From Eledone cirrhosa (lineage: Eukaryota): 64,000 nt of DNA. The translations under genes were made by a program, and so were the position numbers. The stretch spans positions 364,684,001 through 364,748,000 of the forward strand of contig OZ024740.1 in NCBI GenBank assembly GCA_964016885.1. The letters run 5' to 3'. The notes below the pieces were generated by a model. The model was not told the DNA's origin, ran no database searches, and worked only from the letters and a program-made list of their open reading frames with translations. Shown here piece after piece: positions 55,453-58,188 of this stretch (positions are counted from its first letter, which is position 1; each line of letters starts with the position of its first letter).

Positions 55453-56543
55453 TTGCTGCTACTTATTGCACCAGAGCACCGGCCACATGTAAAATCTATG
55501 TTCTTAGTTAGCTTACCTGTGATCCCACTACATCTTTTATGCACCCATACTTTGCATTTGGGACATAAAATGGAGTTTCTACCTACGCCTTTCCTACACA
55601 CTGAGCATGGCCACTTCCCGGAAGGGACCGCCGCCTTATTTTCTTTCTTACAAACTAGAACTTTAGTCTTAGCCAGGTTAATTTTAAAGTCTTTTGATTC
55701 TAGGCCGTGCTTCCATGTTTGGAATCTCTTCTCTAGCTCGGCCATTGATTCAGCTATGAGCGTTAGATCATCTGCATATAGGAGTTCCCATGGGCAGCCG
55801 GTCTTGAACTCCTCTGTTATAGCCTGAAGGGCAATAATAAATAGTAGGGGGCTAAGAACAGAGCCCTGATGGACACCAACTTTTACGCTAAACTCTTCAC
55901 TATATTCGTTGTTAATTCTAACCTTGCTGACTGTTTCTTTATACATGGCTTGTATAGCTCTCACAAGCCATTCGTCAACACCTAGTTTTCTAAGAGCCCA
56001 CCAGATAATGGAACGGGGGACTCTGTCGAAGGCTTTCTCCAAGTCGACAAGAGCTAAGTATAGGGGTTTACTTTTAGCTAGGTACTTCTCCTGTAGTTGT
56101 CGTACAATGAAAAGAGCGTCTGTTTTACTTTTGCCTGACACAAACCCGAACTGCATTTCATCTAGATCAATTCTCTCTCTGATTAGTTGCGCTATTACTT
56201 TTTCCGTGACCTTCATGACCTGGTCGATTAATTTAATGCCTCTATAGTTACTCCTATTTAGGGCATCTCCTTTACCCTTATAACAATTAATGATGATGCT
56301 GCTACGCCAGTCCTTCGGAACAACCCCATTCTGTACGACTTGGTTTACTATCCGGGTGACCATGGTGTGTCCCACCGTACCAGAGGCTTTCAGCATCTCA
56401 GCAACTATTTCCGAAGGCCCAGCCACCTTACTCGTCTTCATATCTCTGATTGCCTTACTTATTATACTACTCTCGACTAACACTGCTGGTCCCTCTATTG
56501 GGTCGATGTGGGTGAGACTGTCTTTCTCCCATTTATTCTCCAT
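55404..56543 (-). pseudogene. RTE reverse transcriptase domain + PHD-like zinc finger
   Basis: NYRGIKL, QFGF, DLEKAFD, GVHQGSVLSP, LYADD; then CSVC..C..C....H..C..C..C. Confidence 0.95.
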
Positions 56544-56812
56544 TTACACCAACACATCACCCATCTCTTTCCATTCAAATTAGAAGCTACATTTTTAGCC
56601 AGTACAAATGACAAGTAAATATGTTTTGAAACAGTGAGCCGGTTTGACATTAGAAAATAGAATCGCTTTCACCGTATTTTTTTGGTAAAGAAATTTTAGT
56701 CTGATAATGGGGTTTAGAACCCTCAGATAAATGGAAAAAGATGAGTATTGACGTACATGGTAGTCGAACCCACATCTTTGGTTATCCAGACCACTGTGCT
56801 AAAGAGATGGCT

Positions 56813-56884
56813 GATGTGTTGGTGTAAATGGTAGCACAGTGGTCTGGATAGCCAAAGATGTGGGTTCGACTCCCATGTACGTCA
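56813..56884 (+). tRNA. tRNA-like cloverleaf, GGA anticodon, short variable loop (identity and function unresolved)
   Basis: Acceptor GATGTGT/GTACGTC (3 G-U), D-arm GTGT-AAATGGTA-GCAC, anticodon arm GTGGT-CTGGATA-GCCAA, variable AGAT, T-arm GTGGG-TTCGACT-CCCAT; canonical spacing, A- and B-boxes present. Confidence 0.55.
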
Positions 56885-57345
56885 ATACTCATTTAATAGT
56901 CTCCGTAGTGACCCTTCCAGGCTATCTTCTTATCAGCATCAGTGAGGGCAAGTGCACCGTTATCATTACGGACACACTTCTCCCCGACAATATCACGGTT
57001 TTCCTTGACACATTGTCTAGCAATCCTGAACACCTCGTGTTTTTAGTCCTCACGTTGTAGAACATGCTTGAACTTTCTATCCTCTGCTTCCCTTTTTGCA
57101 AGGTACACTTGTCTCCTAGCTTTTCTCCTGGCCACTTGATAGTGCTCTCTACTTCCCCCATCCTGCCATACTTTCCAAGCCTGCTTTTTGGCCTTGATTG
57201 TCTCTTCTACCTTACTGTTCCACCACCAAGTTACTCTCCTCCTGCCAATAGGTCTGCTCCAGCAACAAATTTCATCCGTTGCTTTCAGCAGGTTCACTTT
57301 CAATAATTGCCACTGTTCCTCTATAGCGCACGTCTCTAATTGCTC

Positions 57346-58188
57346 TTACTTATTGTCAAAGGCATCAAGTAATAAGCTTTTAAATTTGTCACTGGCTATG
57401 CGGTCCTTCAACTTCCATATTCTTCTCCTCAAGGTAGGCCTCCTCTGTCGTCGAGTACGTCTATTTCTGACTGTGAGGTCACTAACTACTAGGCTATGTT
57501 GGGTGGTGCATTCTTCACGGAGGAGGGATTTAGTGTTTACAACAGACACTTGGTCCCGTCTTCTAGTAAGGATATAAGCTATCTGGCTGGCGTGTTCCCC
57601 TGATCGATAGGTGATCAAGTGGTTTTCACGTTTTTTGAAGTTTGTATTACAGATAGTTAGGTTATTGGCGTCACAGAATTCCAGGATTCTGAAGCCTTCC
57701 TCATTTCTATTTCCAACCCCATAGCCTCCATGGATTCCATCATAGCCATCACTATGTTGTCCAACGTGGCCGTTTAGATCGCCAACAATAACTAGGTAGG
57801 CGCTGTCAGTTATTTGGGTGGTAGTGTGCATTAGCATCTCATAGAACCTGTCCTTTATAACGTCAAGTAGACCAGATTGGGGTGCATAAGCGGATATTAT
57901 TGTCACAGTAGTTTTATTTAGAACTAGCCTTATTTTAATTATTCTGTCATTTACTCTATTTACGTCGATTACCTTATCTACCCATTTTTCAGCTAACATA
58001 ATTCCTACTCCACCCTGTCCGTTGTCATTTCCCACCCAGAAAAGTTTATAGCATCGTTTTTTACCCACGATGAATCTGGCAGACCCCCCTCTCCACCTAG
58101 TCTCTTGAATACAACAAACATCAACTTCTTTACGTTCAAGCATCTCTACAACCTCATTTGAGCGACCTTTCACTGTGCCTACGTTCAT
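57346..58188 (-). pseudogene. RTE apurinic/apyrimidinic-type endonuclease domain
   Basis: (GT)MNV, CIQETRW, SAYAPQ, GDLNGHVG, NTNF, TQHSLV motifs. Confidence 0.95.

What the first reader, a model, noticed from the sequence alone, without database searches (positions are those of the whole stretch)
56801..56892. Non-canonical tRNA: GGA anticodon on a short-arm body, clamped by a ~17-bp leader-trailer helix
Seen: canonical cloverleaf spacing, loop CTGGATA, a 4-nt variable loop and T at position 37. In the permuted unit the leader AATGGAAAGAGATGGGT pairs with the trailer ACTCATCTTTTTCCATT (17 bp, 2 G-U). The two copies differ by a G-U/A-U change that keeps the anticodon stem paired. Known: serine tRNAs have a long variable arm, and eukaryotes normally read UCC with IGA rather than GGA. 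Inference: either a mischargeable or recoding tRNA, a tRNA-shaped processing or Pol III module, or a tRNA-derived satellite.
Basis: partly seen in the sequence, partly recalled or inferred. Interest (0 to 1): 0.7.

Follow-up and report, generated by a model that had tools for sequence, protein, structure and literature searches.

The report
tRNA-mimic hitchhiker of Penelope retrotransposons
This is likely not a working serine tRNA but one of thousands of scattered copies of a small non-coding repeat with a tRNA look-alike inside, likely pasted in by the enzyme of Penelope-type retrotransposons, and its copies break off mostly at the tRNA's T-arm and at its start, which suggests the cell treats the repeat's RNA like a tRNA.

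Summary
The cloverleaf (GGA, short arm, T37) is real, but it is one arm of a 353-bp two-armed insertion in a dead RTE LINE. It belongs to a dispersed 260-271-bp unit with thousands of copies (3,416 exact 20-mer hits). It is no serine tRNA: only 75 of 185 copies keep the loop CTGGATA, 65 have C33 and 20 read CGA. The G-U 'covariation' is a private change (1 of 185). The 17-bp helix is real in the family but cannot form in this truncated arm. Insertions carry Penelope-type marks: back-to-back arms, 3' ends at (TA)n (103 of 108), one arm about 39 nt longer (52 of 69), partial tandems. Young Penelope-like elements abound in the genome. No hammerhead is present. Arm 5' ends pile up in the T-arm just 3' of A58 (hazard 19-fold) and at -4 to +3 of the tRNA. 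This suggests a Pol III template that is folded, and perhaps m1A58-modified and RNase P-trimmed. The scan noted this family before at another locus (e1-9508665); that note, as shown, does not mention these end signatures. Expression, circularity and the partner element are not shown.

The parts
56540..56892 (.). Whole insertion (353 bp): two back-to-back arms of the tRNA-like unit, inside an RTE-type LINE ORF; no long target-site duplication
   Evidence: empty site seen in 8 LINE copies
56540..56801 (-). Arm 1: exactly one unit (262 nt, subfamily A), circularly permuted, running from unit position 20 round to 19
   Evidence: 9 differences from the subfamily majority
56801..56892 (+). Arm 2: 12 nt of leader, tRNA-like body, 8 nt beyond it (unit -12 to +80); the finding's coordinates
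56813..56884 (+). tRNA-like cloverleaf, 72 nt; three G-U pairs in the acceptor stem, G27-A43 mismatch, 4-nt variable loop, A as discriminator
56820..56831 (+). Pol III A box match
   Evidence: motif recalled
56844..56850 (+). Anticodon-like loop CTGGATA (GGA at 56846-56848); not conserved across the family
56863..56873 (+). Pol III B box / T-loop; the A at 56869 is tRNA position 58, and family arms break off just 3' of it
56559..56575 (-). 17-nt leader of the unit (in arm 1)
56730..56746 (-). 17-nt trailer complementary to the leader; holds the T5 run (56735-56739), a possible Pol III terminator
56576..56729 (-). AT-rich spacer of the unit; holds the family's two usual arm start zones, which this atypical copy did not use
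56888..56892 (+). 5-nt microhomology with the LINE target at the right junction (2 nt at the left, 56540-56541)
54429..58188 (-). Host RTE-type LINE (endonuclease + RT, several stops), interrupted by the insertion; family name recalled from its translation and CAT tail

Best explanation
The finding is one arm of an insertion of an abundant non-coding 260-271-bp unit (tRNA look-alike, 17-bp leader-trailer helix, AT-rich spacer) that is likely copied into the genome in trans by the reverse transcriptase and GIY-YIG nuclease of Penelope-like elements. Steps: (1) likely, Pol III transcribes the unit from the internal A and B boxes, starting at about -4 and often reading through the T5 into the next unit. 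(2) Likely, the RNA folds as a pre-tRNA, part of it is trimmed at +1 (RNase P would do this) and the T-loop is modified (m1A58 would fit). (3) Shown as a pattern, enzyme inferred: both ends of a cut in (TA)n prime cDNA at two zones about 39 nt apart, giving two back-to-back arms. (4) Shown: most arms end in the T-arm; survivors end at the tRNA start or run on for one to three units. (5) Inferred: the cDNA ends are joined by short microhomology. The tRNA module would thus stand where retrozymes have a hammerhead, serving as promoter and perhaps as processing site. The GGA triplet has no coding role. Odds by step: RNA-templated Penelope-type insertion 0.85; Pol III promoter role 0.7; m1A58 as the block 0.5; circular template 0.4.
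For: Copy number: 552, 2,350 and 3,416 exact 20-mer hits, reversed-pattern controls 0. Build of 120 position-ordered loci: 65 '-+', 43 single-armed, 12 complex, none plain tail-to-tail. Outer 3' ends at (TA)n 103 of 108 and 87 of 96, background 330 of 2,065. One long and one short arm in 52 of 69 two-armed B loci, median offset 39 nt, range 29-57, p 8e-14. These match the partial tandems, inverted 5'-truncated copy, 30-40-bp tail and (TA)n targets described for PLEs (PMC8557442 passages). Autonomous RT+GIY-YIG elements abound (10,595 first-look candidates, 150 scored; 4 of 5 proteins with both domains), and L192 and L193 have the same back-to-back, TA-ended build. T-arm block: 36 of 100 spacer-picked arms end at unit 54-65, hazard 0.080 against 0.0042 per nt; only 2 of the 24 that pass end in 9-53. 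It holds in single-armed (13 of 19 reaching position 69), asymmetric (13 of 23) and symmetric (14 of 14) loci. Genome-wide counts fall from 3,416 (62-81) to 1,857 (58-77) and 1,451 (52-71). 35 of 124 arms reaching position 9 end within -9..+8, with peaks at -4 (8), -1 (6) and +2 (5), p 3e-14. The tRNA part and helix are far more conserved than the spacer. The two arms share rare letters ten times more often than arms of different loci (0.0060 against 0.0006 per nt).
Against: No sequence link to an autonomous partner: the best match of the spacer to six sampled 3' UTRs is reached by 17 of 300 (B) and 40 of 300 (A) shuffles. The window's own copy is atypical: target in a LINE ORF, not (TA)n, with arm starts at 19 and 80. 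Most T-arm ends lie at 62-66, not at 58, on 4-nt palindromes and AT microhomologies, so structure, fold-back or a T-loop cut explain them as well as m1A58. Read-through errors at A58 are only mildly raised (52 of about 1,500 against 22 of 1,447 at other A positions; the neighbouring C has 63). A T5 run right behind the tRNA should stop Pol III, yet templates run on. The helix shows no two-sided change, and one frequent change (-5 T>C, 59 of 121) breaks a pair. The circle signal is mixed: 12 of 48 arms within 10 nt of one unit against 4.6 expected (p 1e-4), but hazard test p 0.046 and start-end correlation p 0.44.
Confidence: 0.78

Rival explanations
1. DNA-repair capture: fragile (TA)n tracts break and are patched with DNA copied from a few tandem arrays of a tRNA-derived satellite (templated insertion with fold-back); no retrotransposon enzyme is involved.
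For: Junction microhomologies, no long target duplication, and the window's non-TA target. Many symmetric joints lie on a palindrome (14 arms). Long arrays exist (35 full units at C4; L250).
Against: A fixed polarity (3' ends outward), two start zones with a 39-nt offset, and ends at -4/+1 and in the T-arm of the sense RNA are RNA-template and PLE marks. The C4 array itself ends at a usual arm start followed by (TA)n.
Confidence: 0.1
2. An ordinary tRNA-headed SINE moved by a LINE (RTE or similar), with heavy 5' truncation and twin priming.
For: Intact A and B boxes; about a fifth of arms reaching position 9 stop near the tRNA start; LINEs can prime internally on tRNAs (PMC5322556 passages).
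Against: 88 of 246 arms run more than 20 nt past the head into the preceding unit. The two arms overlap in sequence, unlike single-RNA twin priming (recalled). There is no fixed tail and no target duplication, and a one-sided 39-nt tail is described for PLEs.
Confidence: 0.08
3. A functional non-canonical tRNA (GGA anticodon, short arm) that is charged with another amino acid and recodes UCC/UCU, amplified as pseudogenes.
For: Cloverleaf called by two tools; GGA is the commonest triplet; the tRNA part is conserved between subfamilies.
Against: C33 or G33 in whole subfamilies, CGA in another, 7- or 8-nt D loop, G27-A43 mismatch. It scores 45.5 bits against 70-75 for true tRNA-Thr-like genes here. 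The body alone folds no better than shuffles (z -0.05).
Confidence: 0.03

Closest known systems
Animal non-LTR retrozymes (PMC7229834 passages; bioRxiv 10.64898/2026.07.22.740005 part 1 of 5)
   Same: Short non-coding unit in dispersed partial tandems; proposed dependence on Penelope-like elements; possible circular template.
   Different: No hammerhead or other Rfam ribozyme on either strand; carries a tRNA-like Pol III module with a leader-trailer helix instead.
Schistosoma Sm-alpha / Sj-alpha SINE-like repeats (PMC6765202 passages; lead from e1-9508665)
   Same: Pol III-promoter-bearing short unit in tandems, multimeric transcripts, reverse-transcribed copies.
   Different: Those carry a hammerhead that frees the monomers. 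Here there is none, and the passages read give no Penelope-type two-arm build for them.
Non-autonomous Chlamys PLEs such as MRC1 (PMC8557442 passages)
   Same: Non-coding, head-to-tail partial tandems, PLE insertion marks, microsatellite targets.
   Different: They generally share 3' sequence with an autonomous family; none was found here among six sampled families. No tRNA module is mentioned for them in the passages read.
Helenus TRIMp3 (PMC10886601 abstract and Discussion)
   Same: A tRNA-like, probably non-translating Pol III promoter inside a non-autonomous element that is not a SINE.
   Different: Helenus has two LTRs, PBS, PPT and 4-5-bp target duplications and depends on LTR elements. 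This family would be the Penelope-dependent counterpart.
MALAT1 mascRNA (PMC8457004 abstract)
   Same: tRNA mimic whose acceptor stem is extended by leader-trailer pairing; there the pairing promotes RNase P cutting.
   Different: Single-copy Pol II lncRNA end, not mobile; bulge on the 5' side, while here it is a 3-nt bulge on the 3' side.

Membership tests
Translating tRNA-Ser | Cloverleaf with A and B boxes | tested here: met
Translating tRNA-Ser | Long variable arm and G discriminator (identity rule recalled) | tested here: not met
   4-nt loop, A at the discriminator (sequence)
Translating tRNA-Ser | U33 and anticodon kept across the family | tested here: not met
   75 CTGGATA, 65 CCGGATA, 20 CGCGATA, 25 other of 185
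Translating tRNA-Ser | CCA addition and charging | not testable with these tools
   needs tRNA-seq and acid northern
Non-autonomous Penelope-like element | Inverted 5'-truncated copy joined at the 5' end | tested here: met
   65 plain and 12 complex back-to-back loci of 120, none plain tail-to-tail
Non-autonomous Penelope-like element | Partial tandems | tested here: met
   88 of 246 arms run past the leader into the preceding unit
Non-autonomous Penelope-like element | 30-40-bp tail at one end only | tested here: met
   52 of 69, median 39 nt
Non-autonomous Penelope-like element | (TA)n target bias | tested here: met
   103 of 108 and 87 of 96 against 330 of 2,065; not at the window's own copy
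Non-autonomous Penelope-like element | 3' sequence shared with an autonomous partner | tested here: inconclusive
   no significant match in six sampled families; only 34 PLE loci of thousands examined
Non-LTR retrozyme | Type I hammerhead in each unit | tested here: not met
   Rfam at E 0.5 on three loci; core motif scan on both strands
Non-LTR retrozyme | Circular RNA intermediate | tested here: inconclusive
   one-lap arms enriched by permutation (p 1e-4), weak by hazard (p 0.046)
LINE-moved tRNA SINE | Unit starts at the tRNA head, has a fixed tail and a target duplication | tested here: not met
Helenus / TRIMp3 | Two fixed LTRs with 4-5-bp target duplication | tested here: not met
   variable ends, inverted arms; no such duplication at the window copy
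Helenus / TRIMp3 | PBS and PPT | not tested
   no search made
Satellite DNA | Mostly long head-to-tail arrays | tested here: not met
   two long arrays among about 190 loci read, median arm 129-218 nt; large collapsed arrays were not searched for

The most novel reading that the evidence does not exclude
A ribozyme-free counterpart of retrozymes: a tRNA-mimic RNA parasite that uses host tRNA machinery (Pol III, RNase P or the tRNA splicing cut-and-ligate pathway, m1A58 methylase) to cut multimers into monomers and close them into circles, which the Penelope enzyme copies round. Thousands of genomic copies would then preserve a fossil tRNA-seq record of the template's start, processing site and m1A58.
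Probability: 0.3. Interest if true: 0.82.

Novelty: new variant of a known kind. Interest (0 to 1): 0.6.

Why it matters
It removes a false recoding-tRNA candidate and warns that hundreds of 'Ser-GGA' calls in such genomes are repeat copies. If the reading holds, Penelope-like elements move a SINE-like, Pol III-driven passenger that has no ribozyme, filling the gap beside SINEs (LINE-moved) and TRIMp3 (LTR-moved). A 262-nt template with two defined start zones and a defined block is a small, ready substrate for the poorly understood two-armed Penelope insertion reaction. Its truncation map would show that an RNA modification can be read from genomic copies.

Tried and rejected
Sequencing runs: no RNA holder listed; this says nothing on expression. 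Contigs and DNA reads of coded runs hold the family, and the same back-to-back joint at unit 62 stands in X1, X6 and X8. Their letter tables gave no usable covariation, and X1/X8 may be the window's own species. Rfam found no hammerhead in seven Penelope loci; minimal hammerheads can be missed, so this is uninformative. The parent tRNA was not identified: 36-46 matches of 73 to the 16 tRNA-like hits of this genome (only 63 candidates scored), and phage matches at E 0.2 are chance level. A search for long arrays by a three-unit pattern could not be run, so the number of large arrays is open. A screen of flanks against Penelope loci gave mostly common repeats, no clear fused arm. The 16/18 match between the B spacer and one Penelope 3' UTR was rejected by shuffling. 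The second tRNA-like family was examined as a possible sister and rejected (fixed end, other build). One search probed position 59 instead of 58 by my slip and serves as a control. Rows dropped: loci fetched twice (L092, L095, L097, L101, L103, L105, L114, L119, L106), the segmental duplicate L033, and array loci in the end statistics; still counts L032 and L106 twice.

Full report
Observation. ARAGORN calls one tRNA in the window, Ser-GGA at 56812-56885, and Rfam scores 56813-56884 at 45.5 bits. Loop, short variable arm and T37 are as described. The 17-bp leader-trailer complementarity is real but lies in a minus-strand piece (56575-56559 with 56746-56730). The copy at 56801-56892 has only 12 nt of leader, with a private G>C at -2, and 8 nt beyond the body. 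It folds no better than shuffles (z -0.28), whereas complete copies do (z -3.89 and -3.26, opposite strands -2.01 and -2.78).

Context. The tRNA is half of a 353-bp insertion (56540-56892) that breaks the reading frame of a dead RTE-type LINE (family name recalled). Eight empty LINE sites show no long target duplication, only 2 and 5 nt of junction microhomology. The insertion is two back-to-back arms: a minus arm of exactly one 262-nt unit (positions 20 round to 19) and a plus arm from -12 to +80. The genome is 3.0 Gb with about 30 large contigs; its repeat content suggests an octopus, which is my recall and comes from no call.

The family. A DNA search gave 962 candidates, 40 scored. Exact 20-mers give 552 (D-arm), 2,350 (B spacer) and 3,416 (3' acceptor side) hits, with reversed controls at 0. 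I read about 190 loci: 30 top-scoring ones and three position-ordered sets from contig C1 picked by different probes. Subfamilies A (262 bp, the window's) and B (271 bp) share 72 of 73 tRNA positions, 19 of 19 trailer and 15 of 17 leader positions, but only 122 of 165 spacer columns. A third type has a 7-nt D loop. Loops among 185 copies: CTGGATA 75, CCGGATA 65, CGCGATA 20, other 25. The universal U33 (recalled rule) and the anticodon are therefore not kept, while the A and B boxes are intact. In the helix, three recurrent changes are A/G swaps opposite U (-9, -10, -11), one breaks a pair (-5, 59 of 121), and none is two-sided. The structure is thus supported by conservation and folding energy, not by covariation.

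Insertion marks. Of 120 position-ordered loci, 65 are a minus arm followed by a plus arm, 43 single-armed and 12 more complex; none is plain tail-to-tail. Outer 3' ends meet (TA)n in 103 of 108 and 87 of 96 cases against 330 of 2,065 in the flanks. In 52 of 69 two-armed B loci one arm starts at 205-225 and the other at 160-190, median offset 39 nt (the idea to test paired starts came from e1-8665803). Craig et al. describe partial tandems, an inverted 5'-truncated copy, a 30-40-bp one-sided tail and (TA)n targets for Penelope-like elements (PMC8557442, passages). Such elements are plentiful here: 10,595 GIY-YIG candidates with 150 scored, and RT plus C-terminal GIY-YIG in 4 of 5 proteins. L192 and L193 are back-to-back and TA-ended, L192 with one arm about 60 nt longer. 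No partner was named: the best spacer match to six 3' UTR families is reached by 17 of 300 shuffles. The two arms share rare letters ten times more often than arms of different loci and agree at position 174 in 41 of 47 loci, so they mostly come from one template lineage; L082 mixes subfamilies.

What the template looked like. Among 100 spacer-picked B arms, 36 end at unit 54-65 (0.080 per nt against 0.0042), and only 2 of the 24 that pass end between 53 and 9. The block holds for single-armed, asymmetric and symmetric loci (13 of 19, 13 of 23, 14 of 14 reaching position 69), and genome-wide counts drop 3,416, 1,857, 1,451 across it (the last probe also holds one more CpG). Unit position 57 is tRNA position 58. 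Modified bases stop reverse transcriptases, but structure and degradation do too (PMC8062790, passages). Most ends lie 4-8 nt 3' of the expected stop, on AT microhomologies and 4-nt palindromes, which fits trimming after a stop but also a structural stall or a T-loop cut. Substitutions at that A are about twice the rate of other A positions (52 of about 1,500 against 22 of 1,447, p 0.0009), but the neighbouring C shows 63, so this is weak. A second cluster: 35 of 124 arms reaching position 9 end within -9..+8, peaking at -4, -1 and +2, as expected of a Pol III start and an RNase P cut (inference). Yet 88 arms run on into the preceding unit, so multimers or circles also serve, despite the T5 behind the tRNA. 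Arms of one unit plus or minus 10 nt are enriched by permutation (12 of 48 against 4.6, p 1e-4), the window's arm being exact, but the hazard test is weak (p 0.046) and start and end do not correlate (p 0.44). Homology capture at the second copy of the priming site could mimic this in single-armed loci.

Mechanism. Best reading (0.78): a non-autonomous passenger of Penelope-like elements whose tRNA module is its promoter and perhaps its processing site. Shown: copy number, build, end positions, loop variation, absence of a hammerhead. Inferred: Pol III transcription, RNase P trimming, m1A58, the enzyme, any circle. The helix may help folding and cutting, as leader-trailer pairing does in MALAT1 (PMC8457004, abstract); that is untested. 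Rivals: DNA-repair capture at broken (TA)n (0.10), LINE-moved SINE (0.08), recoding tRNA (0.03).

Known relatives and novelty. It works like a non-LTR retrozyme (PMC7229834 passages; bioRxiv 2026.07.22.740005 part 1 of 5) but fails membership for lack of a hammerhead. Schistosoma Sm-alpha has a Pol III promoter plus a hammerhead (PMC6765202 passages). Helenus has a tRNA-like promoter but LTR marks (PMC10886601 abstract and Discussion). A cephalopod repeat survey lists tRNA-type SINEs and Penelope but no such link in the passages read (PMC8967140). Listings (0 papers) showed no description of a ribozyme-free, tRNA-bearing Penelope passenger or of m1A58-shaped truncation of a mobile element; subscription papers, supplements and repeat databases were not seen. 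The scan noted this family before at the place of my L069 (e1-9508665); I had written the Penelope reading down earlier, and that note is not independent support. Verdict: new variant of a known kind, interest 0.6.

Noticed in passing
L205, L207-L215 (e.g. G000:C3:251578487-251581559): A second, unrelated dispersed element of at least 1.7 kb with a fixed 5' end about 310 nt upstream of an internal tRNA-like 73-mer (triplet mostly GGC, variable) whose leader and trailer also pair. It looks like a non-autonomous DNA transposon carrying a tRNA mimic.
   Followed up: partly
G000:C4:264.9157-264.9260 Mb (L201, L026, L202): A 10-kb array with 35 full units scored, (TA)n at both ends and a 3' end at a usual arm start; shared internal variants suggest later tandem amplification.
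   Followed up: partly
L250 (G000:C1:131.459-131.464 Mb): Second multi-unit array, of the 7-nt-D-loop type.
   Followed up: no
L222, L225, L232, L237, L242, L246: Subfamily with loop CGCGATA; 7 of 20 such copies also have A43>C, which restores the 27-43 pair.
   Followed up: partly
L082:1090-1863: One insertion mixes subfamily A and B pieces, so more than one template can be used in one event.
   Followed up: no
L204, L206 (G000:C1:243.65-243.68 Mb): Dense clusters of tRNA-Thr-like genes, 7 and 5 within 3 kb.
   Followed up: no
L187:3809-6622, L189:1775-5062: Penelope-like elements with long open frames (938 and 1,096 codons stop to stop), candidates for recently active families.
   Followed up: partly
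L076:965-1215: An arm with an unusual start abuts a Penelope 3' UTR that is 100% identical over 189 nt to L195; insertion into it or a fused event is not resolved.
   Followed up: no
window 48403-52512: A 4.1-kb degenerate (TA)n tract.
   Followed up: no
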